The notes beneath the pieces were generated by a model. That model worked only from the letters and a program-made list of their open reading frames with translations, did no database searches and had not been told where the DNA came from. Source: a virus (lineage: Duplodnaviria; Caudoviricetes). Taken from it: a DNA stretch of 64,000 nt. Where the stretch lies: positions 24,997-88,996 of IMG/VR virus record IMGVR_UViG_3300020048_000077; one strand, written 5' to 3'. Both the position numbers and the translations under genes were made by a program. Position 1 is the first letter of the stretch; the number at the start of each line of letters is the position of its first letter. This document shows, piece after piece, positions 3,318 to 19,760 of the stretch.

Positions 3318-3321
3318 AGCG

Positions 3322-4374
3322 TCAATCGTTTCTGAATCCTACACACACTGGAAAACGTGGCAGTCCTTCATCAGTTTCTTGGAAGTATCTTATTTCAGCC
3401 TTTTGACCGATGTACTTCTGCTTGTTCTTGAGAATCCATTCTCTTTCCTCAAAACTGAATTTGAGAGAGGCTTTGAATCCACCTTTGCATACGATTATTC
3501 CCTGTTCAGGACGTCTGTCTGAGGGAATGACATCTACGACCTCTACGGTCATATCCTTAAAATCCTTGAACTTCAATAGATTGGAACTTCTTCCGTTGAT
3601 CTTGTAAGACTCCTTTCCATGTCTTATTATGGTTCCTTCATATCCCTGTACAAGGAATTGCCGGTGCCATTCAATGATGTCCTCTTCACTCTCCACCTTC
3701 CATGTTGGAACGGGTTCAATAAGTGTGAACAATGCTTCACTGAATACTCTCCTAAGCTTCAGGAAACGTTCATGAAAAGGTTCATCTGATACCACATCGT
3801 AGACGTGCATCTTGATCTGTTCTGTTTTTCCCTGTCGATACTTCTTGATAAGGCTCATGTTCTCCTGGAAGGAAAGTCCATGTGCGTACAACTCACCATC
3901 TGGTACAGCTCCGAGAGCCTGTCTGATGTACTTCAACTGATTATGAAGATGTCCTACATTGTCAATCTCCTTACCTGCACGAGATAGAAGAACATCGTCC
4001 TCTATCCCGAGACTTCTCATGCCATCCAACTTAGGCTGGACATAGACCGGGTAGGTCCAATCGATCTTGTGCTTCTCCTTGTTGAACTCCTTTGCAAGCA
4101 TTGGTAGAAGTACAGCCTCTTCCTCTGCTTCTTCACGGGTTCTGAAGTAACCCTCATCGATCTTCTGATTGATCTTTGATGTACACTCAGATACTGCCTG
4201 CTCCTCTGCGGAGGTAGCATTGCTCCTTCCTACATTCTTGGGATGGCACTGAGTCACATTTGTGACCTTCTTACTGGTTCCAATAAGGCCTGATATCTGT
4301 ACTACAGTATCATGCTGTGGAAATATTTCGAGGAAACGTATCTTTCCCTTTGTGTCTTTTTTATAGAGTATCAT
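3322..4374 (-). CDS. ATP-dependent DNA ligase with N-terminal WGR-like extension
   Basis: Motif I QPKLDGMR, DGELY, YDV, EGTIIR, LLKFKDF; C-terminal PRFPV. Confidence 0.92.
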   Translation of the reverse strand: MILYKKDTKGKIRFLEIFPQHDTVVQISGLIGTSKKVTNVTQCHPKNVGRSNATSAEEQAVSECTSKINQKIDEGYFRTREEAEEEAVLLPMLAKEFNKEKHKIDWTYPVYVQPKLDGMRSLGIEDDVLLSRAGKEIDNVGHLHNQLKYIRQALGAVPDGELYAHGLSFQENMSLIKKYRQGKTEQIKMHVYDVVSDEPFHERFLKLRRVFSEALFTLIEPVPTWKVESEEDIIEWHRQFLVQGYEGTIIRHGKESYKINGRSSNLLKFKDFKDMTVEVVDVIPSDRRPEQGIIVCKGGFKASLKFSFEEREWILKNKQKYIGQKAEIRYFQETDEGLPRFPVCVGFRND

Positions 4375-5266: not shown

Positions 5267-7867
5267 TTAAATTGTTGTGGTCTTCAACACTATCAACTCA
5301 ATTGCAGGCTCACTCTGAATCACTCTTCCGAGCCGATCCTCCACCATTCCAAAACGACTGATATCCGCACCGTCATGGATCAAGCTGTTCAATCGCTCCC
5401 AATACGCATGCCCTTCAGAAGTATCTTTCCATTTAAACCCATAGGATAGATAATGACATGGTATCAGGGGCTCGACTTCAACAGTGAAAGTGGCATCGAA
5501 GTAAGAACTTGCAGCACTCGCAATATGAGGCGGTAGATTCTTCTGATACCAATCAATGAATTTACATCTCCGTATCTCCAAAGGATCTTCTACAGGAGTT
5601 GATATGATCTCTGCCCATTTACCACCATCATAAATTCCCGTACTCAATACTTTATCTTCAAGCCTGCCACAAGTAGCGATTTTGAATTCCCCGCAGGAAG
5701 TATCAGCATGTCTACTATTATTTCTTGAAGTAGGAATGTATTGGGTTCCTTTAGGGTATCTTCTACGTGCTTCTTCAAGTATCTCTTCCATGCCAATTGT
5801 CCTTACAGGTTCAGGTGCAGGTATCTCATGAGGCAGAGCCCTTCTGCAAACAATAATGCCTCTACCTATATGAACTGGAATATTTTCGAAGGAATCCCAT
5901 TCATCAGATTTTACTGGATTCAAGAGATTTCCAGAAATGGAAGGAACAGAAATATCTCCATAACTTTTACCCAAAGGACGTACACCTACACTTTTGATGA
6001 TTCCAATACATCCGTTATTGGCATGTTTGTAGCCCCATCCACCGGCATCCACCATCACCGCATACTCTCCTACCTTAGGCTCCCACTTTTCTTCTACCGA
6101 TTTCTCAACAGGTGGAACGAATCCCACAGGCATGAGTTCAAAAGCAGGACTCTTATGGACATCTTTTCCATGATATCTTGGGTTTTCAGTACCATCAGAA
6201 ATACCGAATTTATTACATGCTCCCCAATACTCATAGGAATTCTTGGAAGATACGAATTTCAGATAATCTCCTTTATGACAAGGGTAATGCCCTTTAGCAT
6301 GGTCATCTAGACACTTTATATACCTTCCAGTAAGATCTTCTTCTACTTTCATGGTCTTCTTCTTTTCCTGGTCATCGTAGGCTTCCTTAGTTGATGGTTT
6401 GAAATGATCTTCTACACCTTGAGTTGATTGACCGCTTCCTTCACTATATAAGATTCTATAAGAATATTTAGAAGTATCTGTTTTATAAACACCTCCGACT
6501 TTAGTGTAATTACCCCAACCCTCCGGTAACTTGATGCACTCCACATACTCAGGAACAACACTTTCAGTCACCTTCTTAGAATCTTCCAATGACACGAATT
6601 TATTAACTTTGATGCAGGCTTCTAACCAGTGTTTCTCTTCTTCAGTTGCTTTGGTCATGTAAGTTGCAGATGAAAACCTACCCGGATTCCAATAATCTGA
6701 AGAGTTACCTCGGATTGCAATAGCAGAAGAAGATTTGTTTTCAGTACACTTTCCTATAACAGGATCTCTATCGTTCTCACTATAATTATACCTATAAACC
6801 TCTCCCTCAACAAGATCAACAAACTTCAGTCTAACAGGTGCTTTCTCCTCAGCAGACTCTTTCAACACCCACTTTTTGAATTGATCAAAGGTAATCTCTG
6901 TGTATCCTACCTTAATCTCATTCCAATAATCAATGATTTTCTCCCCATCATAATGGTAGTATGAATCTGAATTTCCAGTTAGATTTCGGGGATTACCACT
7001 CCATAATCTGAAACGAGACTGTTTGAGCTTTTCACCTCCTCTGATACACCATTTCTCAGGCAATTCTGTAAGTTCTTTCATAGTAGGTGTTTTATCGACA
7101 TGACCTTCAGGTAAGTATTGTTGAATTCCTGATAGATCTGAAAGTAATTCAAATCTGCAACTTAAACGTGCAAAATTTTTACTAATTCTGAATTTGTATC
7201 CATCACCAAAATCATAAATTTCTTCTGAATAATGCCACTCTGAACCTTGTAATTTTAAGAATTTCTTCCATCCATTAGAAGAAAGAGATGCATACCACTT
7301 TCCAACTTCAAACTGAGGTTCAGTCTTTACGGGTGCTGGAATGTCCTCTTCGAACTCTACAGGTTTAGCAACTATTTTTGCCCAAGTACCCCTATGATAA
7401 ACATTTGGAATCCACTTCAATTCTGAACTTCCCTTAACACATTTACCTTCAAATCCCACATTTTCAATCTGATCAGTAGGATAATAAGGAGTATGTGAAA
7501 CAATCTCATACACCTCCGGAACAGAAGACACACGGACAGGTGTGAACCATGTACCGATGGGATACCTCTCCTTAGCTTCCCTTAGAAGTTTCTCTCCGGG
7601 TGATTCCTCAGGCTTTGAACTTATCTCAGCCCATTTTCCATCCCAATACAGATATCTGTTAAAACTTGTCAGTCCGTATTTTGGATCTTTGTCTATATTC
7701 CAAAGATGGTCCTCAATTTTACTGACAATGTCGTCAGCACTAAATGTAAAATCTGTGTCCACAACTATACACCCTACGTCCTTTTTACTTACATGAGGTG
7801 GATGAAACACAGTACCTACAGGATAGTCTTTCTTTGCCTTTTCAAGCAGTTCTTCTTTTGTTGTCAT
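5267..7867 (-). CDS. 866-aa mosaic repeat protein
   Basis: Three copies of a L(E/R)xA(K/R)xxYPxGT...W(A)xI module plus other short modules such as ELPEKWCIR...ITFDQFKKWV. Confidence 0.8.
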   Translation of the reverse strand: MTTKEELLEKAKKDYPVGTVFHPPHVSKKDVGCIVVDTDFTFSADDIVSKIEDHLWNIDKDPKYGLTSFNRYLYWDGKWAEISSKPEESPGEKLLREAKERYPIGTWFTPVRVSSVPEVYEIVSHTPYYPTDQIENVGFEGKCVKGSSELKWIPNVYHRGTWAKIVAKPVEFEEDIPAPVKTEPQFEVGKWYASLSSNGWKKFLKLQGSEWHYSEEIYDFGDGYKFRISKNFARLSCRFELLSDLSGIQQYLPEGHVDKTPTMKELTELPEKWCIRGGEKLKQSRFRLWSGNPRNLTGNSDSYYHYDGEKIIDYWNEIKVGYTEITFDQFKKWVLKESAEEKAPVRLKFVDLVEGEVYRYNYSENDRDPVIGKCTENKSSSAIAIRGNSSDYWNPGRFSSATYMTKATEEEKHWLEACIKVNKFVSLEDSKKVTESVVPEYVECIKLPEGWGNYTKVGGVYKTDTSKYSYRILYSEGSGQSTQGVEDHFKPSTKEAYDDQEKKKTMKVEEDLTGRYIKCLDDHAKGHYPCHKGDYLKFVSSKNSYEYWGACNKFGISDGTENPRYHGKDVHKSPAFELMPVGFVPPVEKSVEEKWEPKVGEYAVMVDAGGWGYKHANNGCIGIIKSVGVRPLGKSYGDISVPSISGNLLNPVKSDEWDSFENIPVHIGRGIIVCRRALPHEIPAPEPVRTIGMEEILEEARRRYPKGTQYIPTSRNNSRHADTSCGEFKIATCGRLEDKVLSTGIYDGGKWAEIISTPVEDPLEIRRCKFIDWYQKNLPPHIASAASSYFDATFTVEVEPLIPCHYLSYGFKWKDTSEGHAYWERLNSLIHDGADISRFGMVEDRLGRVIQSEPAIELIVLKTTTI

Positions 7868-7871
7868 CTGT

Positions 7872-8129
7872 TTAAGTTTTAGGGTATGCCTTCAAGGCAT
7901 GTACTTTACCATCACCGAAAGGATGAGGCAGTTCTCTGGCAAGAAGTGATGGAAGGTTATCAATAACCTCAAGTTCTCCTTCTTTCCACCAGGCATTCTT
8001 CTCCTTGCCCGGGTTGAGATCTCCAATGAATGTAATAGAGGCCTGTATCTTGCCTCCATCATATTCACCGATCTCTTTTATCAGCGCAAAACCTCCCTTA
8101 GGGGTCTTTACAAAATCCAATGATTTCAT
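7872..8129 (-). CDS. Hypothetical protein
   Basis: 85-aa ORF tightly coupled to the next gene. Confidence 0.65.
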   Translation of the reverse strand: MKSLDFVKTPKGGFALIKEIGEYDGGKIQASITFIGDLNPGKEKNAWWKEGELEVIDNLPSLLARELPHPFGDGKVHALKAYPKT

Positions 8130-8158
8130 GATATTAAATGTGTTTGTAAAATGTTGAG

Positions 8159-8301
8159 TGAGGGATCCAGGACTTGAACCTGGAGAGCGTACTTAGAGTC
8201 AGATTTCATATCGAGGATATCTGTATTCCCTGTTCTGCTTGTAGTTTCCTACGAAGGACAATATCAATAATTGTTGCGTCTACCAATTCCGCCAATCCCC
8301 C
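8159..8301 (-). ncRNA. tRNA-like RNA (Leu/Ser-type D arm) with 74-nt variable region
   Basis: Acceptor GGGGGAT/ATCCCTC; D arm GCG-GAATTGGTAGA-CGC; arm ACAAT-TATTGAT-ATTGT; 74-nt insert; T arm CCAGG-TTCAAGT-CCTGG. Confidence 0.75.
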
Positions 8302-8328
8302 TTGTGCCAGTCTTTCCTGGCAGTCTTT

Positions 8329-9435
8329 TCAATAAGCCAGACTCAAAGAGCTAAGAGTCTTTCTGGCCTCTATGGTTCTTTCCACACGAAGGAAGAGTCC
8401 TTTGAAAGGCTCTTTCTCCAACTTAGAGTTTAACAGTTTCTTTCCTGTATCAGCATCATGCACATGAAGATCTTCCAATGGAATATCCACGAATGAACTA
8501 TGTGCAAGAAGAATGCCTATAGTCTTAGGATTGGCAAGCCGGAACCGATACTCCTTCCTGCCTTTATACCAATCGTAGTGTGGATGATCGTGAGCATTAT
8601 GCGAAACTTTGAATGAAACTGCAGTAGTACCCTTTTCATCCTGTTGCATGAGATTGGAGTTGTAGGTAACTATACCTACCTCAATATTCATGTGTGGAAG
8701 TACCTGATCGAATGTATCCGGATACATGTCCACCACATAGGCGATCTTATCACAGATGTCATAGGACAGATCCGATACCTTCTCAAGAAAGGCTTTGAGA
8801 CGTTCAGGGTCATTGACAGTGGTCTGCTCTTTGATGAAATCCAATGCCACATCCACTGTCAATGGATCGAATTTGAAATCGAAGAGTATGCGACCAGGTC
8901 TGTTGAAAAGGAACTTGGAAAGATTCCTACGTTCATTCACGGTCATCACATTGAATACCTTCACAGCAGTTGTAAGACCGTCAAAGAAAGTAAGCAAATC
9001 TGCGGATGGATCTCCAGCCTTAGTATCAGCCGATGAATAGTTCTTCTCAAATTCATCGAAAAGAAGCATTACAGGCCCTCCTACACATTCAAGGACGGCC
9101 ATAATGATATGCATAGGCTGTCCATTTACAAGAAGAATGGGAAGATCCGTGGCCTTGGCCACATTGAGCGCTGTCTGCGTTTTTCCATTCCCTGAAGTGC
9201 CTGTGAGCATCACTGATGGATTCTTACTGGTGGAACTGTTCCACAATGTGATCATCGTGTCCATTGCCTCCTTCGCAGTACCTGTAAGATTGGGCACTGT
9301 ATGTGGATCAGCAAGCTTCTCCAGATGTATTCCGGCCATTGTCTCCACGATCTGATAAAAACCGAAAGGAAGTTTTGGAAGTAATTTTCCTGAATTGCCG
9401 ATGAGATTGAACGTTGTTCCTTTTTGATAAAGCAT
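8329..9435 (-). CDS. AAA+ ATPase
   Basis: Walker A GTSGNGKT, Walker B LLFDEFEK, Arg finger NRPGRI. Confidence 0.88.
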   Translation of the reverse strand: MLYQKGTTFNLIGNSGKLLPKLPFGFYQIVETMAGIHLEKLADPHTVPNLTGTAKEAMDTMITLWNSSTSKNPSVMLTGTSGNGKTQTALNVAKATDLPILLVNGQPMHIIMAVLECVGGPVMLLFDEFEKNYSSADTKAGDPSADLLTFFDGLTTAVKVFNVMTVNERRNLSKFLFNRPGRILFDFKFDPLTVDVALDFIKEQTTVNDPERLKAFLEKVSDLSYDICDKIAYVVDMYPDTFDQVLPHMNIEVGIVTYNSNLMQQDEKGTTAVSFKVSHNAHDHPHYDWYKGRKEYRFRLANPKTIGILLAHSSFVDIPLEDLHVHDADTGKKLLNSKLEKEPFKGLFLRVERTIEARKTLSSLSLAY

Positions 9436-9497
9436 GATTACTGTTGTTTTAGATTGTTTTTATTACTGGTTTTTAAGCTTCAATCCCAACTGTATAT

Positions 9498-10202
9498 CTA
9501 CTTCATTTTCTGAGTATATCCTACGTTGAACAAGAAGAGTACGTAAATGGCAAGAATGAAGATCACTTCTAATATCCAAAATCTGGTAGATTCCAACAGA
9601 ATTTCAGCTGTCACATTCGGAATGACCTGTCCGAACATGTGGGCATACAGGAATGCACATGCAACTGTTGTGAATGGGAAGGAAAAGAGTGAAAGAATAA
9701 GCGCTGTTCCGAAGGAAATAAACCTGTCCTTTACAACTTCTTTTCTCTTGTAAGGTCCTCTCGATCTGACTACCTTTTCTTTCAGTACCTCTTTAAGAAT
9801 TGCAGGTTCATCCACTTTGTTCTCCACGGTCGGAGTAGCAGTATAAGTGGAAGCCGTTGTTTCTACCGGATCAGAAGACTTTGAAGAAATTCTACCGGCT
9901 GCCTGCGTCTCCTTATACTGATGGATACGTGAAATGATCTCTCTTACCATTTCCGCATTCGGAGCAGTGGGAGATTTCCATACTATACGTCCATCCTTAT
10001 TACCGATGATGCCTCCATTTGTAAGAATAACATATAGCATTCCAGCATCTAAGGAGAGTCCCTTCTCCTTACGCAGATATACAGTGAGATCGTCACGTTT
10101 ATAAAAAATAAGGGTAGGACTTTGAAGTGCAGCATGCATCTCCTTCATTACTTTGGTGTACTTGATTACCATTCTTGGAACGGTGTTTCTCTCTTGTGAC
10201 AT
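9498..10202 (-). CDS. Hypothetical protein with two C-terminal transmembrane segments
   Basis: Start reassigned to ATG 10202 (MSQERNT) because the longer ORF runs through tRNA-Arg; hydrophobic C-terminus. Confidence 0.65.
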   Translation of the reverse strand: MSQERNTVPRMVIKYTKVMKEMHAALQSPTLIFYKRDDLTVYLRKEKGLSLDAGMLYVILTNGGIIGNKDGRIVWKSPTAPNAEMVREIISRIHQYKETQAAGRISSKSSDPVETTASTYTATPTVENKVDEPAILKEVLKEKVVRSRGPYKRKEVVKDRFISFGTALILSLFSFPFTTVACAFLYAHMFGQVIPNVTAEILLESTRFWILEVIFILAIYVLFLFNVGYTQKMK

Positions 10203-10247
10203 GAAAAAAAGGTTTAAGATTAGTGTTTGAACGTGTTTAAAATTTAG

Positions 10248-10322
10248 TGGAGGATGCAGGACTCGAACCTGCGACCATACTGCAAGAAGCAGTTTCTCTC
10301 TAACCATCTGAGCTAATCCTCC
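10248..10322 (-). tRNA. tRNA-Arg(UCU), atypical
   Basis: GGAGGAT/ATCCTCC acceptor; T arm GCAGG-TTCGAGT-CCTGC; anticodon loop CT-TCT-TG; D stem GCTC/GAGA mismatch; no encoded CCA. Confidence 0.75.
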
Positions 10323-10395
10323 TACCACCGGTCTTTCCCGGTTGTCAATGGTACTGCACCCGCACCATCTGGGATCGTCTTACGACAATAAAATT

Positions 10396-10778
10396 AGCAG
10401 AGAGGTGTGCTGTTACGCTAAATGCTCAACGGAATCTACATCAGCCTTGCTCCTGTGGCCTTATTGCCTACCACATCCTCAGTGTTCACGACACCAGGTT
10501 AAGAGGTTAAGTCCCGGATCCTCTCGTACAAGGGAACCTTACTGATCATTGAGTTACTTACCTGAATACTACTCCAGCGGGCCTGAGGATCTACGAGTCT
10601 TTCAACTTTAGAGGCAGGTTACTGTATAATAGATTTTCATGTTCACTCCTCCCGAGTTCTTCCGTTACGCGCCCTACAATTCAGGTTTCACGGTACTTGG
10701 ATTCGCGTTTTACCAAGTATTCCCTCTTTGCAACTCCTTAGATGATGGCTGCTTCCAGGCCAACATTCCAGCTCTGCC
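10396..10778 (-). ncRNA. Large structured ncRNA with 23S rRNA H43/H44 (GTPase centre) and H23/H24-like motifs
   Basis: 5' GCTGGAATGTTGGCCTGGAAGCAGCCATCATCTAAGGAGT; 3' GCGTAACAGCACAC; terminal stem GGCAGAG/CTCTGCT; internal hairpin TACTTGG/CCAAGTA; no credible ORF. Confidence 0.75.
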
Positions 10779-10779
10779 T

Positions 10780-11835
10780 TTACTTGTACCTGATCACATC
10801 AGACCATGAAGGTCCATTACTGACAAATACCTTGTCGAACTTCACATTCAACGATGCAAGAAGACCATCGATGTCAATATGGAACTGGTCCATACATGTC
10901 ACCACAAGATTCTTCTTCCTTCCTACAGAATACGGAGAATCGCACTCCAGAGCGTAATTCAACAACTGTGGATTGAGATGTGCGATTCTGAACTCTCCTT
11001 GATGCTCATTGAAAATGTTTGTCTCGTTCTCATTGTTTCTGAGTTCAAGCTTGCATTCATCAGGAAAATACCCATTACCATGTCTTGTAGCATAGCTACG
11101 TGTGACATAATAAGTTTCATCATTTTCTCCTCTCCACATGCTTGCATTCTTGCCAGTGGTGTTCGACCTTGTGACATTGGGAAAGAACCCATGATCCATA
11201 TCAAGAAGAATGCCTTGAGCGCCCTCGTAGATAGGAGTTCCACCTATACTGAACAGATTTGGCACCACCGTAATGATCTCTTTCACTCTTTCCACAAACC
11301 CATTGAACAGGTCTATGGACACATGTAGTTCAGTTGAAGATGGACATTTCGAATACTTCTCTATGTTCTCCAGCTTTCCAGCAAGAACATCCGGATAGAA
11401 CAGATCTCGCACATGCAATTTGTAATGATGTTCCTGTCTTTGTATAGTGGTGCCAAAACCGGCCCCTACAGAACCATGATTCATGATCTTCTCACGTTCT
11501 CTGTTACGACAGATGTCGAACGGAGTAGTGATAATGGCCATGGGATTCACATAGATCTTAGGAGCTACAATCTTTCCAAGAAGAACATCATACTCTCTTA
11601 CAAGCGCAGGAGGATAGAGAGTACAGTACTCACTCCAGTAAGTTGGAGCACCTTGAAGTGTTCCTGAACCGAAGGAGGAGAATACATGCCTCTGTCCCTT
11701 GTGTACGACAGTATGCCCTGCCTGATGCCCACCGTTGAATCTTACAACGATGGGATCAGGAACAGTAGTGCATAGATATGAGGTGACAAGACCTTTGCCC
11801 TCATCTCCAAACCCAAGTCCAAGAACAGTGCTCAT
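10780..11835 (-). CDS. purA: Adenylosuccinate synthetase (PurA)-like protein
   Basis: GLGFGDEGKG, RFNGGHQAGHTV, EGAQGILLD, VTRSNT; divergent C-terminal YVTRSYATRHGNG. Confidence 0.88.
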   Translation of the reverse strand: MSTVLGLGFGDEGKGLVTSYLCTTVPDPIVVRFNGGHQAGHTVVHKGQRHVFSSFGSGTLQGAPTYWSEYCTLYPPALVREYDVLLGKIVAPKIYVNPMAIITTPFDICRNREREKIMNHGSVGAGFGTTIQRQEHHYKLHVRDLFYPDVLAGKLENIEKYSKCPSSTELHVSIDLFNGFVERVKEIITVVPNLFSIGGTPIYEGAQGILLDMDHGFFPNVTRSNTTGKNASMWRGENDETYYVTRSYATRHGNGYFPDECKLELRNNENETNIFNEHQGEFRIAHLNPQLLNYALECDSPYSVGRKKNLVVTCMDQFHIDIDGLLASLNVKFDKVFVSNGPSWSDVIRYK

Positions 11836-12716
11836 AGCATGTCAACTTTCGGAGTTGGTGCTGTGCCTGCATCTTGTACAGGGGCATCTGAAGTAACTGA
11901 TGCAGGACTCACTCTCAATGTCTTCAGGATGATATCTGATAAGACCATTGGAAGAGTGGTGTGATCAGTGATCACGATACAATTCTCTCCAAGGAGTTCC
12001 TTCCATCGGGGATCCACATGTCTTCCACCATGATCCACATGGATGTGAAACACATGATTGGTCTCCTGAGCCTTTGTAAGGAGTTCTGCAGCCGTGAATG
12101 ATGTACCTTGGCCAGCAGCTGCAGTTCCCATAAGTCCTTTTACAGCGCTCATCGGAAGAGTTGTCAGATTAGGTTCATCACCTACGGTGAATACGAATCC
12201 TTTTGCTCTCCTTTTGGAGAAGGCATCCGTTTGGATGTGATTTGATGCAAAGTACCATGCAAGAAGATAACTCTCACCTGCATTTCCTCCACCTCCACCT
12301 TCAAGGAAGGTACGTGTCAACCACATGTCCAGTTCTGCATCTCCTGATTCGAACTGTCCGATTTGAAGAGGGAAACGGTCACACTCGTGATCACCGATGG
12401 CCCCGAACATCAAAGAGATGTCATTAAGACCCTTCTGGATGAGTCCTCCCATCAATTTGGGAAGACCTTCCTTGATCAGTTCATGTGGTATATGGCCCAT
12501 ACTACCGGTCACATCCAAGTACAGCTGTACAGGAATGGAATGCGGGTGTAGCTCTGAATCCCGACTCTCTCTGAATGCCACTCCCGAAGGGTTCATGGCA
12601 GCATGTATCTGCCTGGATTCAGATTGAGTGAAGATCTTAGTGACAGGTGCAGTTGCATACTTCATCGTAGTTGCCCGTTCTAAACGAGCATCTACGGAAT
12701 AACTTGAATTTCCCAT
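11832..12716 (-). CDS. VWA-domain protein
   Basis: MIDAS-like LDVTGSMG, GAIGDHECD, EGGGGGNAGESY, FTVGDE. Confidence 0.85.
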   Translation of the reverse strand: MGNSSYSVDARLERATTMKYATAPVTKIFTQSESRQIHAAMNPSGVAFRESRDSELHPHSIPVQLYLDVTGSMGHIPHELIKEGLPKLMGGLIQKGLNDISLMFGAIGDHECDRFPLQIGQFESGDAELDMWLTRTFLEGGGGGNAGESYLLAWYFASNHIQTDAFSKRRAKGFVFTVGDEPNLTTLPMSAVKGLMGTAAAGQGTSFTAAELLTKAQETNHVFHIHVDHGGRHVDPRWKELLGENCIVITDHTTLPMVLSDIILKTLRVSPASVTSDAPVQDAGTAPTPKVDML

Positions 12717-12719
12717 GGC

Positions 12720-13079
12720 TCAATTGTCTTGGAACAGGTGTTTGTAACGTGTCTTTGCAATGTCAAGCTTGATCTCAAGGTTCCTGATGGTGATACCGAG
12801 TTCAATATCCTTCTCTACGAAGGCCTTGGCATCGAAATCTGCAGCCAGTACAAGACTGATGGCATCAGTAGGTGACATGTCAAGCATTCCTTCGCGTTCA
12901 CGCTTGATCTGCTTCAACTGTACCTCAAGATCCTCCACCTGTCGTTTGTAGAGCATATCTGCTGCCTCAGCAATGGCCACGGCACGATCAGCTCTGATCT
13001 TCTTGTTGTTTCTCAATAAAGATGCTCCGAAAGCTCCTTTCATTTCTCCCAGTCCTTCTGGTGTTACGTCTTCTGACAT
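12720..13079 (-). CDS. Small coiled-coil protein of the VWA-PurA cassette
   Basis: FGASLLRNNKKIRADRAVAI...; similar to 17115-17456. Confidence 0.75.
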   Translation of the reverse strand: MSEDVTPEGLGEMKGAFGASLLRNNKKIRADRAVAIAEAADMLYKRQVEDLEVQLKQIKREREGMLDMSPTDAISLVLAADFDAKAFVEKDIELGITIRNLEIKLDIAKTRYKHLFQDN

Positions 13080-13102
13080 GATTATTTGGTTTTTAAAATT
13101 GA

Positions 13103-13390
13103 TTACTTTACTTGAATGTCGATATCCATCAGAATCTTTCCGAGGAGTGTGAATGTGGCCCTTGCAGATTCTCTTGTAAGAGTGAACTTGGAAATGTTCA
13201 TACCATCCTTACATTCCAACCCTCCAAAAGGGGGATGATCCATCTCTTCAGGAAACTTAGGACGTTCATACTTGAAATGTATCAGTTGACCTTCTTCTGA
13301 AGATCCTACCCATACCGTTCTGTCATCTCCAAGGTCTACTTGAAGACCATCTACTGTGATAGGAGGCTTTTCTTGTTTTTTCTTTGCCAT
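13103..13390 (-). CDS. Hypothetical protein
   Basis: 95-aa ORF in the operon. Confidence 0.65.
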   Translation of the reverse strand: MAKKKQEKPPITVDGLQVDLGDDRTVWVGSSEEGQLIHFKYERPKFPEEMDHPPFGGLECKDGMNISKFTLTRESARATFTLLGKILMDIDIQVK

Positions 13391-13417
13391 TGCATTGATG
13401 TTACTTGATTTTCAATT

Positions 13418-13944
13418 TAGCACCCTCTTTCTTATATCTTGGTCTAGTCGCCAAAGCTTAAAGAGTAGGGTCACATAGATATTAAGGCAATGCAGGCAAC
13501 AGACCTACTTTAACCTGTTTAGCAGACAGGACCTTATAACTACTTGCTGAGAACTCATTTGTATTGTGTGCTGGATACGGCTATATTTTCAAGTTAGCAC
13601 AATATATGTTTCACCCATTTCCTTTCTCAAGGGAACAATACATCTAGGATTACTCCGTAGGTAGTGGCAATTTAACCTCTCTGATCTCTTAGTCCCAGTG
13701 AACTTATTCCACACTATTAAGCAGTCTGCTACTGCCCCTCTACTGTCAATTCAGTATCTAATATCTTTCCGCTAGTCCGCTTACGCAGAACACGAGAGGT
13801 TCAATGTTTAGCCTTTTTCTTCAATAATTAGGACAACCGCATCTTCCAGAGTCTTGGGCCTGACGGACGGTACGGTGTGTAGGCATTCCTACTTCGATGC
13901 AGACTTCGATGGTCTCAACTCCACGTCCGCACTTAGTCCATATC
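13418..13944 (-). ncRNA. Candidate large structured ncRNA (~520 nt)
   Basis: ORF-free; helices AACCTCTC/GAGAGGTT, GTATTGT/ACAATAC, TGTGCT/AGCACA, GCGGACG/CGTCCGT, GTAGG/CCTAC, TACTG/CAGTA, GCAGT/ACTGC, CCTGT/ACAGG. Confidence 0.55.
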
Positions 13945-14421
13945 TTAGGAATTCAATAGTTCTTCAACCTTTTTCAATGCACTTATGAACCGACTTTCCT
14001 CATTCATGAATGGAAGAAGTTCTTCTTTGATAGCTGTTAATCGGTTGATTTCAGTTAGATGAGTGAGATAGACTATCCTTAATTCAAGGTCATGGACTAT
14101 CGATTGAATCTGAATGCCCTGTACATTCATAAGAAGCGGAACTTCTATGCCAGCATCTTTACAGAATTGCTTGTCGTAATGGAGCATATTCTTGTAGTGG
14201 GCCAGTACTCTTCGTAACCAACCGAGTTCAGAACATACACTGATGTTCACAGTGTTCTGAGATGCCTCAGGATTTGTTATAGATACTGATATATGATATT
14301 TCATATCTGCAACTCCAAGATCTTTGAGTCTTGCATCAATTTCATTGATCTTATTTTCCAGAGCAAGTTGTCTTCCTTTTTTACTTGAAAGACCTGAGCT
14401 TCTTTTTGCTAAAGCGGTCAT
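13945..14421 (-). CDS. Hypothetical helical protein
   Basis: 158-aa ORF with AT-rich leader. Confidence 0.7.
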   Translation of the reverse strand: MTALAKRSSGLSSKKGRQLALENKINEIDARLKDLGVADMKYHISVSITNPEASQNTVNISVCSELGWLRRVLAHYKNMLHYDKQFCKDAGIEVPLLMNVQGIQIQSIVHDLELRIVYLTHLTEINRLTAIKEELLPFMNEESRFISALKKVEELLNS

Positions 14422-14446
14422 TTTTCTACGTTTTTAATTGTTTGAT

Positions 14447-14521
14447 TGGTTGTGGCTGGGGGAATCGAACCACCGACCTCCTGCGTATAAGACAGGCGCT
14501 CTACCACTGAGCTGTACCACA
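14447..14521 (-). tRNA. tRNA-Ile(UAU)
   Basis: Cloverleaf with CCTGT-CTTATAC-GCAGG anticodon arm, GCTC/GAGC D stem, TTCGATT T loop, encoded ACCA. Confidence 0.85.
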
Positions 14522-14568
14522 ATGGCGCCCACTCTCTTTCAATGTCCTTCGTGGAGAGTGGGCTGTTT

Positions 14569-14719
14569 GTTCACATGATATTCAAAAGTCTTAAGCTAAC
14601 GCTTTAGATCTAATGCTCTAACCAGCTGAGCTACAGGGCTTTGTTTCTCTTTAAAGAAGCCCTGATGGGATTCGAACCCATGACCCTCAGATATTGAAGA
14701 TACTTCTGATCACATGAAC
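14569..14719 (-). ncRNA. Circularly permuted tRNA mimic, YrlA/Y-RNA-like
   Basis: Order is T arm (ATGGG-TTCGAAT-CCCAT), acceptor stem CAGGGCT/AGCCCTG closed by a 17-nt loop, then D arm (GCTC-AGCTGGTTA-GAGC); ends pair as an 11-bp stem GTTCATGTGAT/ATCATGTGAAC. Confidence 0.8.
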
Positions 14720-14727
14720 GGATGAAC

Positions 14728-14811
14728 CTCAGTCTCAAGCTTTGACCCAACACTAATTCTAAGTTACCTCGAATATATGATGTTGATGCTAATGCTCAGG
14801 CTTTGGTCAAT
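14728..14811 (-). other. Structured element between the 267-aa gene and the Y-like RNA
   Basis: TTGACC/GGTCAA and CAACA/TGTTG helices; direct repeat CAAAGC(C/T)TGAG twice. Confidence 0.45.
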
Positions 14812-14816
14812 TTCTA

Positions 14817-15620
14817 CTATTTCCCGTTGAAGAGGTATCCGAAGATCCTCTGGGATGTCAATTCCGATTGATGCACTTCTACCTCATTGCACTGCTTCAG
14901 AGCAATGACAACTGCTGTAAGCAACGTTGTACGTCTCTTCAACATGCCGGCACGTTCTCTTTGAGAAGCTTCTCCAGAGAACTCCTGTACAGTGTAGTCT
15001 CCCACATCAAGGACAGTTGTTCTGTTGGCCACCTGAGGAACATATCCTTTGATGTCCTCCTTACCTGTGAGGTTTGGATCCTGAAGGATGTACTGCTCCT
15101 TCTCCGTGGTCTTGATCGTACCTTCCAGTATAGGAAGCTGATAGATTCCTGCTCTATCCTTGTACAGGTCTGAAGTGGCCTCACTCCATTGTTTCGAATC
15201 GCTTCTTACTGGAATGCTCTCAAGCATGATGGTAAGATCACTGTTCTCAATGATGCTCTTCAATCTGAGGAGTTCAAGAGAAGTGTATACTCCCCAATCT
15301 TCACCCTCTACCACCAAAGAAGCAGTAGCTGTACCGGAGGCATTGGTCTTCTCCTGTGCGAACAGGGCATCAATGTACTCTCCTGCATTGTCAAGGAACC
15401 AGGCCAGCTTCTCACCTACAGTGGTCTGAACGATTATGGTTCCTCTCTTAGTGGGATCATCGGCCATGCCGTCCTTCACTGCAAATGTTTTCTGATACCC
15501 TTGAAAGGCACCTTGTTTTCCTGAGAAGAACTTCGCAAAGTCCTTCAACATGTTCTTGAACGGCACTGCAAGACTGTCAGTCTTTGCAAGTAGTACGTTG
15601 AGTTTCAATTCTTTAGACAT
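14817..15620 (-). CDS. Conserved phage hypothetical protein (LKLNVLLAKTD type)
   Basis: 267 aa with clean, highly expressed codon usage; resembles proteins I recall next to Y-RNA/TROVE loci (unverified). Confidence 0.8.
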   Translation of the reverse strand: MSKELKLNVLLAKTDSLAVPFKNMLKDFAKFFSGKQGAFQGYQKTFAVKDGMADDPTKRGTIIVQTTVGEKLAWFLDNAGEYIDALFAQEKTNASGTATASLVVEGEDWGVYTSLELLRLKSIIENSDLTIMLESIPVRSDSKQWSEATSDLYKDRAGIYQLPILEGTIKTTEKEQYILQDPNLTGKEDIKGYVPQVANRTTVLDVGDYTVQEFSGEASQRERAGMLKRRTTLLTAVVIALKQCNEVEVHQSELTSQRIFGYLFNGK

Positions 15621-15654
15621 TTTAGTCTTGAGTTTTAAGGGTTAAGTGTTAAAA

Positions 15655-15692
15655 ATGAAGGAAGGAGAGATCACTGTCTCCCCTTCCTTTTA
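15655..15692 (-). terminator. Intrinsic terminator after 15710-16309
   Basis: AAGGAAGGGGAGA...TCTCTCCTTCCTT hairpin followed by CATTTT. Confidence 0.6.
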
Positions 15693-15709
15693 ACATGATC
15701 TTGATGACC

Positions 15710-16309
15710 TTACAGCGTAGCTGATTGTGTCTCATCAACAATGCCAGCACTTACAGGTGCAGCATCAGCGACAAGGATCACATGCTCCGGAGCAGCATCA
15801 CCCTTCATGGCCACAACTTCAGTGTTGCTGAAGATGTACTGACCCTTGTGAGTGATGAAAGTTCCCTCAGAACCTCTTCGCTTTGCTGAAGATTCCAAGT
15901 TCTCCTTCTGATAGTCTGTAGGGACAACGGTCTCAGCGATCTTTACACGGAGTCTGTACTCTCCGAGCTTCTGATTCTTACGACCCAATGGAAGAACTTC
16001 TTTTCCAAGTTCCTTATCCATTTCCCAATCCGCATCATCACCACAGTTGATGTCCAATTGCTTGGCAACATCATTGATCTCTGCGGTCATCCATGCTCTT
16101 CGTGCCCCATTGCTGAAGCGAGCATCTGATGCGTTCAACAGGCCCAACAGGGCGCCTGAATTCCCTTCAATACTGGTCATTCTCTCAGCAAATTCAAGCT
16201 GAACTTTTGACGAGTTTGTGGTTTTGATGGCTCTCACCAAGAGAGTTTCACCAGCTTGAAGTGAATCAAGCATCGCAGCTACTTCTGCGCTTTTCTTAGA
16301 CTTTGACAT
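15710..16309 (-). CDS. Hypothetical protein (possible ssDNA-binding protein)
   Basis: 199 aa, beta-rich, flexible acidic tail, own terminator; function is a guess. Confidence 0.7.
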   Translation of the reverse strand: MSKSKKSAEVAAMLDSLQAGETLLVRAIKTTNSSKVQLEFAERMTSIEGNSGALLGLLNASDARFSNGARRAWMTAEINDVAKQLDINCGDDADWEMDKELGKEVLPLGRKNQKLGEYRLRVKIAETVVPTDYQKENLESSAKRRGSEGTFITHKGQYIFSNTEVVAMKGDAAPEHVILVADAAPVSAGIVDETQSATL

Positions 16310-16477
16310 GATTTGAATTGTTTACTATGATTAATTTGGAACAGTGTTAAAGGCCTGTCCCCTACCTTACAATTGTTTTCTCGACCTATACGACCAGATG
16401 CGCTTGAGTGATATTCTCTGTGGCAATCAATGGATTCCTTCGTGTCTTCTACATTATTGATTTCTTTACATTCTTTT

Positions 16478-17114: not shown

Positions 17115-17456
17115 TTACTTTGAAGTGAACCACTCAGCCATCACTTCACGGGCAATGGTCAGTTCCTGATTCTTCAGAATCAGATTGACCTTCGTGTTGT
17201 GCATTGTCTGTACGAACTCTGAAGGATTGAAGGATTTGGAGATCACATTCAACGTGGTTGAAACGTTGTCAGTGCTCACATCCGTCATCTCATCGAGTTT
17301 GTCTTCGAGTTTACGAACCTCACTTTCAAGCTTGTAGATCAGCATCTGCTGTTCTGCGGCAATACCATCACTGATACGCACTGCACGGTCTTCCTTGACC
17401 TTTCCATTCTCCCTTGCAAGCTTTGCTGCAAAGGCACTCTTTTGTTTTACTGCCAT
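17115..17456 (-). CDS. Small coiled-coil protein, paralog of 12720-13079
   Basis: FAAKLARENGKVKEDRAVRI...LE...FV...L pattern shared with 12720-13079. Confidence 0.75.
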   Translation of the reverse strand: MAVKQKSAFAAKLARENGKVKEDRAVRISDGIAAEQQMLIYKLESEVRKLEDKLDEMTDVSTDNVSTTLNVISKSFNPSEFVQTMHNTKVNLILKNQELTIAREVMAEWFTSK

Positions 17457-17745
17457 GACATTTATTGTTAAAGATTTGATTGTTTACAAATGAAAGGAGC
17501 CTGAACAATCTTTCGAATGCACAGGCTCCAGAAGGTCCGGTCTTTTGCCGATGTATGGGGATAGACTCAGGACGTATTAAATTCCACCATACATTTCTAC
17601 TCTTTGGTCGGATCAGGCCTCTGTCCAACGGTAGCGGAAACTGAGTAGGAACCACCGTTAAGCACCCTTTCAGTGCTCGTGTAGACATAACGAGTATTGA
17701 TATACTCGGTTGCTATGAGATATTACAAAAAAAGATATTTGCCTC

Positions 17746-17991
17746 TTAATTCAACTTTATAATAGCATTTGTAATGGCTATCTGGGAAATACAAAGCTGT
17801 CTAAAGGCTATTGCAGGCATCTGTGGGAATAAGTACTCTTTAAACACTTTCTCATTGATGCTAAGTTCCTCCTTATGAAGAACTTCAGGTTTCAAACACA
17901 TTTTTTTCAGAGTTTGCTTGTGCAACTCATTGAGTTTCACACCTCGTTTTATATTACTGATACACATCTCCGAACAGATTTTGAAAAACAA
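17746..17991 (-). CDS. Hypothetical protein
   Basis: ORF in the early small-gene cluster. Confidence 0.5.
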   Translation of the reverse strand: MFFKICSEMCISNIKRGVKLNELHKQTLKKMCLKPEVLHKEELSINEKVFKEYLFPQMPAIAFRQLCISQIAITNAIIKLN

Positions 17992-19293: not shown

Positions 19294-19760
19294 TGATGAT
19301 CGTGGTTAGTTTAGGAATGTTAGTTTTGAATACCTTAATCAACAGCATGAGCTGGTCACATTTGGATTTGACTTCAGTGACTTAATGACCCAACCGGAAA
19401 GAATGGCCCGCAATGCGTGCACCACTCGATCCGGAATTGCCTGCATTGGTTCAGCAGGTGTAGCTAATCCACGCTCAAGAGGTTTCCACACCTATGATGA
19501 ACATGATTTCTCGACTGACTACGGACATCTTCCTCTTTATTAGCATCAAGAGGAGATGGTTGTACTATTGAGGAATGTGCTGAGTTCTGCTCAGGTCACA
19601 TTCCTTATACTCCGGTAACATGTACGACAGTATCACTGGACATGGTGGGAGGAGTGAGATATAGAGGGTGACAGGTACTTTCAACTGACCTTGATAAGCT
19701 GGTCAAATCTTATATTCTACTGCCCTTAGTTTGTTGCCTGGATCCTTGGCCCCTCTAATA

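What the first reader, a model, noticed from the sequence alone, without database searches (positions are those of the whole stretch)
8159..15620. Overall hypothesis: an early-expressed RNA toolkit mimicking the translation apparatus
Within ~7.5 kb on one strand lie an rRNA GTPase-centre mimic, a Y-RNA-like tRNA mimic, an elongated tRNA-like RNA, two odd tRNAs and another large structured region, interleaved with AAA, PurA-like and VWA genes. Inference: a coordinated RNA-based system to decoy translation-targeting defences (anticodon nucleases, rRNA toxins, stringent-response sensors) or to remodel host ribosomes.
Basis: inference. Interest (0 to 1): 0.75.

Follow-up and report, generated by a model that had tools for sequence, protein, structure and literature searches.

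The report
Phage island of translation-mimicking RNA genes
One strand of this marine crAss-like phage carries, within 7.5 kb, five non-coding RNA elements and two tRNAs; at least three of the elements belong to widespread RNA families missing from the catalogue, two of which copy parts of the ribosome or of tRNA, but each family turns up on its own in other phages, so this is a collection of independent modules rather than one proven machine.

Summary
All elements lie on the minus strand.

- **tRNA-shaped RNA (8159-8301):** it has a 74-nt variable region.
- **tRNA-Arg(UCU) and tRNA-Ile(UAU):** both are real tRNAs.
- **GAC/SRL RNA (10396-10778):** its ends rebuild the 23S GTPase-associated centre (H42-H44). 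Its 326-nt insert shows a sarcin-ricin-type hairpin.
- **Structured RNA (13401-13679):** about 280 nt.
- **YrlA-type permuted tRNA mimic (14572-14719).**

Three of these are families absent from Rfam 15.

- The GAC mimic occurs in 39 other viral contigs, and its closing stem covaries. The scan had already noted it, and the GAC+SRL form, on other DNA.
- The 280-nt RNA occurs in at least 119 viral contigs. It is homologous to an abundant long non-coding RNA of Cellulophaga phage phi14:2 that appears at the earliest time sampled. It is not made of 16S motifs.
- New here: the Y-like RNA pairs with the upstream DUF7873 gene. A module follows that gene about 120-420 nt downstream in 28 of 45 other phage loci, and probably in 42. 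No Ro60 gene is present.

The "coordinated toolkit" is only partly supported. Each family occurs without the others, this phage's closest relatives lack the whole stretch, and gene order is not conserved. Function and timing in this phage are untested.

The parts
8159..8301 (-). tRNA-shaped RNA (143 nt) with a class II (Leu-type) body. It has a 7-bp acceptor stem, a GG-containing D loop, a UUCAAGU T loop, an anticodon loop UAUUGAU (A33, anticodon UUG) and a 74-nt variable region. No CCA is encoded.
   Evidence: Read from sequence. Not called by ARAGORN or Rfam tRNA. 470 of 1540 in-silico shortenings of the variable region are called as a tRNA with anticodon UUG. MFE z = +0.08. No homologue was found, so a decayed tRNA gene is not excluded.
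8329..9435 (-). AAA+ ATPase gene (368 aa)
   Evidence: Pfam AAA 7.9e-7; phrog_2376 3e-45. No homologue in L035.
10247..10322 (-). tRNA-Arg(UCU). Its anticodon loop is CU-UCU-UG (U37, G38) and it has an A.A pair at the top of the anticodon stem.
   Evidence: ARAGORN; Rfam tRNA 47.5 bits. AGA is 44% of Arg codons in 15 phage genes.
10396..10778 (-). GAC/SRL RNA (about 383 nt). Its 5' end is a closing strand plus a copy of H43. A 326-nt insert follows. Its 3' end is an H44 loop (GCGUAACAGCACAC) plus the complementary closing strand. It starts 2 nt after the PurA-like stop codon.
   Evidence: It is one of 28 distinct family members whose closing stems differ in sequence but pair (mean run 7.25 bp against 4.2 in cross-paired controls).
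10735..10773 (-). Copy of 23S H42/H43 (E. coli 1050-1088), with C at position 1065 and G at 1067
   Evidence: 32 of 39 identical, E 3.7e-6. Among 185,579 species genomes this exact variant was found only in the true 23S gene of a Cardinium endosymbiont.
10514..10533 (-). Sarcin-ricin-type hairpin inside the insert, with the core GUACGAGAGGA at 10519-10529
   Evidence: Exact 11-mer match to 23S 2655-2665. The surrounding 47 nt are identical in L190. The longest-insert members L190 and L035 also carry an SRL-type hairpin; L166 has a looser AGUAG-GCAA-CGA string.
10780..11835 (-). PurA/PurZ-like gene (351 aa; keeps GDEGKG)
   Evidence: Pfam Adenylsucc_synt 2.2e-41; phrog_1211 1.4e-55. Below the NCBIfam cut-offs for both PurA and PurZ.
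11832..12716 (-). 294-aa gene, possibly VWA-like. It overlaps the PurA-like start codon by 4 nt.
   Evidence: phrog_2971 2.7e-35; no Pfam hit; nearest named Atlas clusters are VWA at 0.81-0.83. The same gene pair, at 40% identity, occurs in L035.
13401..13679 (-). Conserved structured RNA ('D-type', about 280 nt) in the 554-nt ORF-free gap 13391-13944
   Evidence: nhmmer E 5.5e-11 to phi14:2 NC_021806 nt 3113-3360. The profile hits L025/L026 at 5.9e-15. The exact 17-mer occurs in at least 119 viral contigs, and 76 of 80 fetched loci match the full profile. Helices covary in 30 sequences.
14447..14521 (-). tRNA-Ile(UAU) with encoded CCA, C8, an A7.A66 mismatch and a U.C mismatch in the T stem
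   Evidence: ARAGORN; Rfam 50.8 bits. AUA is 38% of Ile codons.
14572..14719 (-). Y-like RNA. In order: T arm, a 7-bp acceptor-like stem closed by a 17-nt loop, D arm. An anticodon-stem equivalent (UUAGA/UCUGA) runs into a long terminal stem whose 5' strand carries GAUCAGAAG.
   Evidence: Rfam YrlA 39.4 bits, E 4.9e-6. Fold z = -4.39. Own model R1 built and searched.
14817..15620 (-). DUF7873 gene (267 aa), the conserved upstream partner of the Y-like RNA
   Evidence: Pfam PF25283 4e-34. 599 homologues at E <= 1e-5 among the candidates scored. Same gene-then-RNA layout in G038 and in 28-42 of 45 other loci. AlphaFold pLDDT 86.7, with no clear PDB fold match.

Best explanation
The stretch is this phage's tRNA island, an accessory region where separately inherited RNA genes have accumulated on one strand between unrelated protein genes. 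I find no evidence that it is a single multi-part machine. I count four independent RNA modules plus two decoding tRNAs.

(a) **GAC/SRL RNA.** It rebuilds in one molecule the two 23S rRNA elements that translational GTPases touch. It most likely works off the ribosome, as a binding-site imitation for a protein that recognises that site: uL11/uL10, a GTPase, RelA, or an rRNA-targeting toxin (inferred).

(b) **DUF7873 gene plus YrlA-type permuted tRNA mimic.** This looks like a two-part protein-RNA module in which DUF7873, not Ro60, is the probable partner. The linkage is shown; binding is inferred.

(c) **'D-type' structured RNA.** Its phi14:2 homologue is an abundant RNA made early and kept late. 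Its job is unknown, and nothing ties it to translation.

(d) **tRNA-shaped RNA with an oversized variable region.** It is either a non-decoding mimic or a decaying tRNA gene.

The two tRNAs supply the phage's favoured AGA and AUA codons. Because the RNAs share one strand and sit beside tRNAs, they are probably transcribed with their neighbours and cut out by tRNA-processing enzymes (inferred).
For: - **Each family is real.** GAC: 39 of 40 viral contigs hold only the 24-37-nt H43 piece, followed by the H44 loop and a covarying closing stem. SRL insert: conserved in L190 with compensatory changes, and an independent GGGA-loop version occurs in L035. D-type RNA.
- **DUF7873 and the Y-like RNA are linked.** The G038 layout is the same. 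Model R1 finds full-length hits of 40 bits or more starting about 120-420 nt after the gene, on the same strand, in 28 of 45 loci. 21 of those are not identical to sequences the model was built from. Weaker hits lie at the same place in 14 more. The 7-bp acceptor stems are all different.
- **The modules are distributed independently**.
- **No Ro60/TROVE gene** in G000 or in four complete genomes that carry Y-like modules.
- **Many GAC RNAs start right after a tRNA 3' end**, and DUF7873 loci lie in tRNA arrays.
- **Codon use matches the two tRNAs**.
- **phi14:2 expression:** bioRxiv 10.1101/2020.03.07.982082.
Against: - One unrelated lineage (L035/G077) also has Y-like modules, a GAC/SRL RNA and the VWA-like/PurZ-like pair within 11 kb on one strand. 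Some functional coupling, or joint transfer, is therefore not excluded.
- In six genomes the GAC RNA and the Y-like RNA share a strand, 4-19 kb apart.
- No expression or binding data exist for this phage.
- The co-occurrence counts are small and not corrected for relatedness or genome size.
- The tRNA-shaped RNA has no relatives, so its status is open.
Confidence: 0.6

Rival explanations
1. One reading: the RNAs form one coordinated, co-expressed toolkit. It imitates the ribosome's factor site and tRNA in order to soak up translation-targeting defence effectors (rRNA or tRNA nucleases, stringent-response sensors) or to remodel host ribosomes.
For: - Two elements truly copy translation machinery.
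- All lie on one strand, with no strong terminator-like site between 15650 and 8100.
- GAC/SRL RNA and Y-like modules co-locate in L035.
- Closed-acceptor Y-like modules occur in 8 of 39 GAC-bearing records.
- From my own knowledge, not checked here: isolated SRL and GAC oligonucleotides bind EF-G, and VapC20-type toxins cut the SRL.
Against: - Each family occurs alone elsewhere.
- Close relatives of the phage lack all of them.
- Gene order differs between the two lineages that have several of them.
- The Y-like RNA lacks an anticodon loop, so it cannot bait anticodon nucleases.
- The D-type RNA shows no rRNA likeness.
- Enrichment over baseline is not evident: 4 of 13 against 1-2 of 7 complete genomes.
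Confidence: 0.17
2. The tRNA-like pieces (Y-like RNA, tRNA-shaped RNA, the tRNAs) serve mainly as RNase P / RNase Z cutting signals. They punctuate a long transcript and release the neighbouring mRNAs and RNAs, without acting as mimics in trans.
For: - The RNAs abut genes and tRNAs. The GAC RNA begins 2 nt after the PurA-like stop and ends 73 nt before tRNA-Arg. The Y-like RNA sits about 100 nt after DUF7873 and about 50 nt before tRNA-Ile.
- Family members often start just after a tRNA.
- YrlA is a substrate of tRNA enzymes (PMC4201824).
Against: - The closed acceptor stem gives RNase P and RNase Z no free ends at the usual site.
- The fixed link to one protein family and the conserved long terminal stem point to a specific ribonucleoprotein rather than a generic cut site.
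- This reading does not explain the GAC/SRL copy.
Confidence: 0.13
3. The elements are debris: captured rRNA fragments and broken tRNA genes drifting neutrally in a variable region.
For: - The tRNA-shaped RNA has no relatives, has A33 and folds no better than shuffles.
- MFE z-scores of the two large gaps are +0.29 and +0.75.
- The 23S-like 10-mers at 10680-10697 are at chance level and are not kept in L190.
Against: - Three families are conserved across many unrelated phages with covarying helices.
- The rRNA copy is confined to functional helices and is closed by its own stem.
Confidence: 0.05

Closest known systems
GTPase-associated centre (H42-H44, E. coli 23S nt 1051-1108) and sarcin-ricin loop (H95, nt 2646-2674) of bacterial 23S rRNA
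   Same: H43 is copied at 32 of 39 positions. The H44 loop GCGUAAYAGC is kept, including the base that corresponds to A1095. There is a closing helix in place of H42. The SRL core GUACGAGAGGA is exact and sits on a short stem.
   Different: This is a free-standing RNA of about 383 nt, not part of an rRNA gene. A 326-nt insert splits H44 from H43. It has C1065 and G1067 in the 1067 loop, and U in place of A2654 and of C2666, plus one extra C beside the SRL core. Protein or factor binding is untested.
Phage GAC-mimic RNA family. It is not in Rfam 15, I found no paper on it, and earlier reports of this scan noted it on other genomes.
   Same: All family features are present: the H43 copy, the H44 loop, a covarying closing stem and a position next to a tRNA.
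   Different: It belongs to the rare long-insert subclass that carries an SRL-type hairpin (3 of 29 distinct members on hand, plus a looser candidate in L166). It sits in an 89-kb crAss-like phage with only three tRNAs, not in a jumbo phage's tRNA array.
YrlA / bacterial Y RNAs (Rfam RF02553; Chen et al. 2014, PMC4201824), partners of Ro60/Rsr
   Same: It has the permuted tRNA-like domain in the order T arm, closed acceptor-like stem, D arm. All the elbow-forming bases are present: U8, A14, G15 with C48, G18G19, and the T loop UUCGAAU. It also has a long terminal stem.
   Different: - It scores 39.4 bits against a gathering score of 69.
- Only the tRNA-like part aligns.
- The 5' motif is GAUCAGAAG, not GNCGAAN0-1G.
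- No rsr/TROVE gene is in the genome.
- The conserved neighbour is DUF7873, a protein of unknown fold.
Long non-coding RNA of the g004-g005 junction of Cellulophaga phage phi14:2 (Drobysheva et al., bioRxiv 10.1101/2020.03.07.982082)
   Same: It is homologous to window 13416-13660 (nhmmer E 5.5e-11). The conserved blocks are shared, and the GUAUUGU/ACAAUAC helix covaries.
   Different: Expression has been measured only in phi14:2. The flanking genes differ. The function is unknown in both phages.
GOLLD and ROOL, large ornate RNAs found near tRNA genes in phages
   Same: They are also large ORF-free RNA genes that lie beside phage tRNAs.
   Different: No Rfam match at E <= 10. The sequences and helices are unrelated.

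Membership tests
Phage GAC-mimic RNA family (undescribed) | Copy of 23S H43 near the 5' end | tested here: met
   32 of 39 identical to E. coli 1050-1088, E 3.7e-6.
Phage GAC-mimic RNA family (undescribed) | H44 loop GCGUARYAGCACAC downstream of a variable insert | tested here: met
   Exact GCGTAACAGCACAC, 326 nt after the H43 block.
Phage GAC-mimic RNA family (undescribed) | 5' and 3' flanks pair into a closing helix that differs in sequence between members | tested here: met
   GCAGAG pairs with CUCUGC here. Over 28 members the mean run is 7.25 bp against 4.2 in cross-paired controls.
True 23S rRNA gene or large fragment | Contiguous homology beyond H42-H44 | tested here: not met
   Only 39-nt, 20-nt and 15-nt matches. 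No LSU hit in Rfam at E <= 10.
Sarcin-ricin (bulged-G plus GNRA) hairpin | G-bulge core GUA, C-GNRA-G, GA, on a closing stem | tested here: met
   The sequence is UGUAC-GAGA-GGAU, flanked by CCC and GGG. The 3D motif is not testable here.
YrlA / Y RNA (RF02553) | Reaches the Rfam gathering score | tested here: not met
   39.4 bits against 69; model positions 23-88 of 114.
YrlA / Y RNA (RF02553) | tRNA-like T arm, closed acceptor-like stem and D arm, with the tertiary-pair bases | tested here: met
   Alignment; sequence; criteria from PMC4201824.
YrlA / Y RNA (RF02553) | 5' motif GNCGAAN0-1G, the proposed Rsr contact | tested here: not met
   The 5' strand reads GAUCAGAAG, with one extra A.
YrlA / Y RNA (RF02553) | Encoded next to a Ro60/Rsr (TROVE) gene | tested here: not met
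   No TROVE match in the 88,996-bp genome; the control genomes gave matches.
DUF7873 + Y-like RNA pair (proposed here) | Y-like module about 120-420 nt downstream of a DUF7873 gene on the same strand | tested here: met
   In the window the offset to the model-R1-equivalent start is about 122 nt. G038. 28 of 45 loci score 40 bits or more, and 14 more score weakly.
DUF7873 + Y-like RNA pair (proposed here) | The protein binds the RNA | not testable with these tools
   Needs pull-down or CLIP. The fold search gave no informative match.
Canonical tRNA (RF00005), for 8159-8301 | Recognised as a cloverleaf by a tRNA model, with U33 | tested here: not met
   No ARAGORN or Rfam call. It has A33. It is called only after the variable region is shortened.
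phi14:2-type 'D-type' RNA family | Conserved blocks plus covarying helices | tested here: met
phi14:2-type 'D-type' RNA family | Abundant transcript made early and kept late | not tested
   Shown only for phi14:2. No RNA run holds this phage.
GOLLD / ROOL | Match to the Rfam models | tested here: not met
   No hit at E <= 10 in 7800-16400.
PurZ (aminoadenine pathway) | Passes the NCBIfam PurZ model | tested here: not met
   41 bits against a cut-off of 300. Also below all PurA equivalog cut-offs.
VWA domain (294-aa ORF) | Pfam or solved-structure match | tested here: inconclusive
   No Pfam or PDB sequence hit. Atlas VWA clusters score 0.81-0.83 only.

The most novel reading that the evidence does not exclude
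Phages carry a kit of free-standing imitations of the translation apparatus. One is a 'ribosome in pieces' RNA that joins the GAC and the SRL. Another is a new ribonucleoprotein in which DUF7873 replaces Ro60 as the holder of a Y-type tRNA mimic. In this phage the two would act together to trap or mislead host factors, or defence effectors, that read ribosomes and tRNAs.
Probability: 0.15. Interest if true: 0.9.

Novelty: new variant of a known kind. Interest (0 to 1): 0.7.

Why it matters
Three of the five RNA elements belong to widespread phage RNA families that are absent from Rfam 15. I found no description of them in the searchable literature, apart from the unexplained phi14:2 transcript.

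- **GAC/SRL RNA.** This is a natural RNA that displays both rRNA contact sites of the translational GTPases. It gives a direct handle on how phages interfere with, or protect, translation.
- **DUF7873 and the Y-like RNA.** The tight link between them defines a testable protein-RNA pair. It suggests that Y-type tRNA mimics have partners other than Ro60.
- **Limit on the original idea.** The appealing 'one coordinated toolkit' reading is not what the distribution data show. Follow-up should treat the modules one at a time.

Tried and rejected
- **RNA evidence:** no RNA holder listed for window 8100-15700. Only two DNA runs of one aquatic study hold it, so timing and co-transcription could not be examined.
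- **Metagenome scan** for the SRL-insert architecture returned only chance or true-rRNA hits.
- **SRL-to-H44 pattern** in viral contigs found one homologue only, L190.
I used a profile-based locus search instead.
- **DUF7873 locus searches** with the single protein and with a 2-sequence alignment were too insensitive.
- **DUF7873 structure:** the model is confident, but Foldseek-PDB gave nothing at E <= 0.001. VIA-wide gave a best Z of 6.2, at the level of a generic helical arrangement.
- **Thermodynamic z-scores** of gaps 10323-10779, 13391-13944 and 8150-8310 are not significant. Comparative evidence was needed instead.
- **'Scrambled 16S motifs'** in 13391-13944: the best match to E. coli 16S is 18.3 bits, within shuffles that reach 25.4.
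- **'Second 23S segment'** at about 10680-10697: these are chance-level 10-mers, not kept in L190.
- **INPHARED blastn** of the 7.6 kb matched only tRNA-like stretches.
- **Literature searches** found no description of GAC or SRL mimics in phages, and none of DUF7873.
- **PurA versus PurZ** was left unresolved.

Full report
**Setting.** The window is bases 24997-88996 of an 88,996-bp IMG/VR virus record. Its terminase, portal and capsid genes match crAss-type PHROG families. Its capsid protein is 72-82% identical to many viral contigs, and the only sequencing runs that hold the stretch come from an aquatic metagenome. From about 20 kb down to base 84 all genes run on the minus strand. The flagged 8159-15620 stretch holds eight protein genes, five ORF-free gaps and two tRNAs. 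None of the gaps gains a gene-strand ORF under TAG=Q or code 4.

**The rRNA mimic.** I compared the minus strand of gap 10323-10779 with E. coli 23S rRNA.
- Window 10735-10773 matches nt 1050-1088 (H42/H43, the uL11/thiostrepton site) at 32 of 39 positions, E 3.7e-6. That is 38.3 bits against a maximum of 25.4 in shuffles.
- Window 10405-10419 matches the H44 loop at 13 of 15 positions.
- Window 10519-10529 is an exact GUACGAGAGGA, the sarcin-ricin core, sitting on a CCC/GGG stem.

The H43 pattern occurs in 40 viral contigs. In 39 of them only 24-37 nt match 23S, so these are not rRNA genes. In each complete member the H44 loop follows after an insert, 67 to 367 nt long in the 28 distinct members I compared. 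Then comes a strand complementary to the 5' flank. Over those 28 members the closing helix averages 7.25 paired bases, against 4.2 when flanks are cross-paired.

Many members start right after a tRNA. Rfam 15 has no family for them, and I found no paper. Earlier reports of this scan noted the same family, and a GAC+SRL form, on other genomes. I treated those as leads and re-derived the points above independently.

The window's member spans 10396-10778. Its 1067-loop variant (C1065, G1067) occurs in only one of 185,579 species genomes, in a true Cardinium 23S gene. It is therefore not a plain copy of host rRNA.

**The SRL-bearing insert.** One homologue, L190, lies in a 128,845-bp phage with terminal repeats. 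It shares a core of about 165 nt at roughly 93% identity, including 47 identical nt around the SRL hairpin. Its peripheral hairpins differ in sequence but are kept in place, and 10 predicted pairs carry double changes. An independent member in L035 has a 367-nt insert with the hairpin AGUAC-GGGA-GGA. Clear SRL-type hairpins occur in three of the four members with inserts over 320 nt (window, L190, L035). The fourth, L166, has only a looser AGUAG-GCAA-CGA string, and no shorter member has one. In the L190 phage nothing else of window 7800-16400 is conserved.

**The Y-like RNA and its partner gene.** Rfam YrlA matches 14608-14689 at 39.4 bits, E 4.9e-6, but only over the tRNA-like part of the model. 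The order of parts is:
- a T arm;
- a perfect 7-bp acceptor-like stem closed by a 17-nt loop;
- a D arm;
- an anticodon-stem equivalent that runs into a long terminal stem.

The whole gap folds with z = -4.39. All the elbow-forming bases listed for YrlA by Chen et al. are present, but the proposed Rsr-contact motif is only approximated. The genome has no TROVE gene.

Similar closed-acceptor modules occur in eight of 39 GAC-bearing records. Two other hits were tRNA-tRNA junctions. Four complete genomes with such modules also lack TROVE.

The decisive observation is the upstream gene. In G038 a DUF7873 gene ends about 150 nt before the Y-like module, the same layout as in the window. I fetched 45 further DUF7873 loci.
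- A strict pattern found the module 132-177 nt downstream in seven of them.
- A covariance model built from 11 modules found full-length hits of 40 bits or more, on the same strand, starting about 120-420 nt after the gene, in 28 loci. 21 of those are not identical to sequences the model was built from.
- Weaker hits lie at the same spot in 14 more loci.
- The acceptor stems all differ in sequence but all pair.

DUF7873 models confidently (pLDDT 86.7) but has no informative fold match. I found no paper on it.

**The other large structured region.** MFE statistics say nothing for gap 13391-13944, and its likeness to E. coli 16S or 23S is no better than shuffles. A scan note pointed me to an unexplained transcript of Cellulophaga phage phi14:2. 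I checked this and found that window 13416-13660 is homologous to NC_021806 nt 3113-3360, nhmmer E 5.5e-11. That region lies in the g004-g005 junction, one of two intergenic stretches reported as transcribed above most genes, from the earliest time sampled, without later decline.

The family is large. An invariant 17-mer occurs in at least 119 viral contigs, and 76 of 80 fetched loci match the full profile. Several helices covary in a 30-sequence alignment. phi14:2 has neither a GAC mimic nor a YrlA-type hit.

**The tRNA-like RNA and the tRNAs.** Window 8159-8301 has a Leu-type tRNA body with a 74-nt variable region and A33. It is recognised as a cloverleaf (anticodon UUG) only when that region is shortened in silico. 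I found no relatives, so it may be a mimic or a decaying gene.

tRNA-Arg(UCU) and tRNA-Ile(UAU) score well and carry a few unusual bases. They read codons the phage favours: AGA is 44% of Arg codons and AUA is 38% of Ile codons.

**Is it one system?**

In favour:
- All elements share one strand, with no strong terminator-like site between 15650 and 8100.
- In the unrelated L035 lineage, two Y-like modules, a GAC/SRL RNA and a VWA-like/PurZ-like pair (40% identity to the window's) lie within 11 kb amid 13 tRNAs.

Against:
- Gene order differs between the two lineages.
- 14 close relatives of this phage have no match to the 7.6 kb and no YrlA hit.
- Each family occurs without the others.
- Y-like modules are found in 4 of 13 complete GAC-bearing genomes, against 1-2 of 7 complete genomes without a GAC match. 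These are small, uncorrected numbers that show no clear enrichment.

I conclude that the stretch is a tRNA-island-type accumulation of independent modules. A shared theme of translation mimicry holds for two of them. A coordinated mechanism remains an untested inference.

Noticed in passing
window 10780-12716 and L035:8824-10939: The 294-aa (VWA-like?) gene overlaps the PurA/PurZ-like gene by 4 nt in both phages, with about 40% identity for each protein. A homologue of the window's 113-aa ORF (17115-17456) lies just upstream in L035. This looks like a conserved nucleotide-metabolism gene pair. Whether the enzyme is PurA or PurZ is unresolved (it keeps GDEGKG).
   Followed up: partly
window 17457-17953 and 19294-19760: Two more ORF-free gaps of 497 and 467 nt lie on the same gene arm. 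They have no Rfam hit at E <= 1 and no match to the D-type profile. They may hold further uncatalogued RNAs.
   Followed up: partly
window 8299-8326 (minus strand): A hairpin lies just after the AAA gene stop and before the tRNA-shaped RNA. The stretch that contains it resembles 16S nt 1155-1185 (helix 40) at 24 of 31 positions, E 0.016. That is within the range reached by shuffles of longer queries, so it is probably chance.
   Followed up: partly
window 10323-10395 (minus strand): Three short hairpins fill the 73 nt between the GAC/SRL RNA and tRNA-Arg. They could be processing or termination signals.
   Followed up: no
window 14725-14808 (minus strand): An imperfect long hairpin with two copies of CAAAGCYUGAG lies between the DUF7873 stop and the Y-like RNA. 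I did not check whether it is conserved in other DUF7873 loci.
   Followed up: no
L368, L385, L386 (DUF7873 loci): ARAGORN calls a tRNA with anticodon CUA (amber-suppressor type, labelled 'Pyl') 280-530 nt downstream of the DUF7873 gene, just beyond the Y-like module. L381, L387 and L393 have tRNAs with odd-length anticodons at the same place.
   Followed up: no
L244 (Cardinium endosymbiont 23S rRNA): Among 185,579 species genomes, this is the only bacterial genome whose true 23S carries the window's C1065/G1067 H43 variant.
   Followed up: yes
L025:14616-14898: In a 327-kb phage the D-type RNA lies 3.6 kb downstream of that phage's PurZ-like gene, on the same strand. This echoes its position 1.6 kb upstream of the PurA-like gene in the window.
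   Followed up: partly
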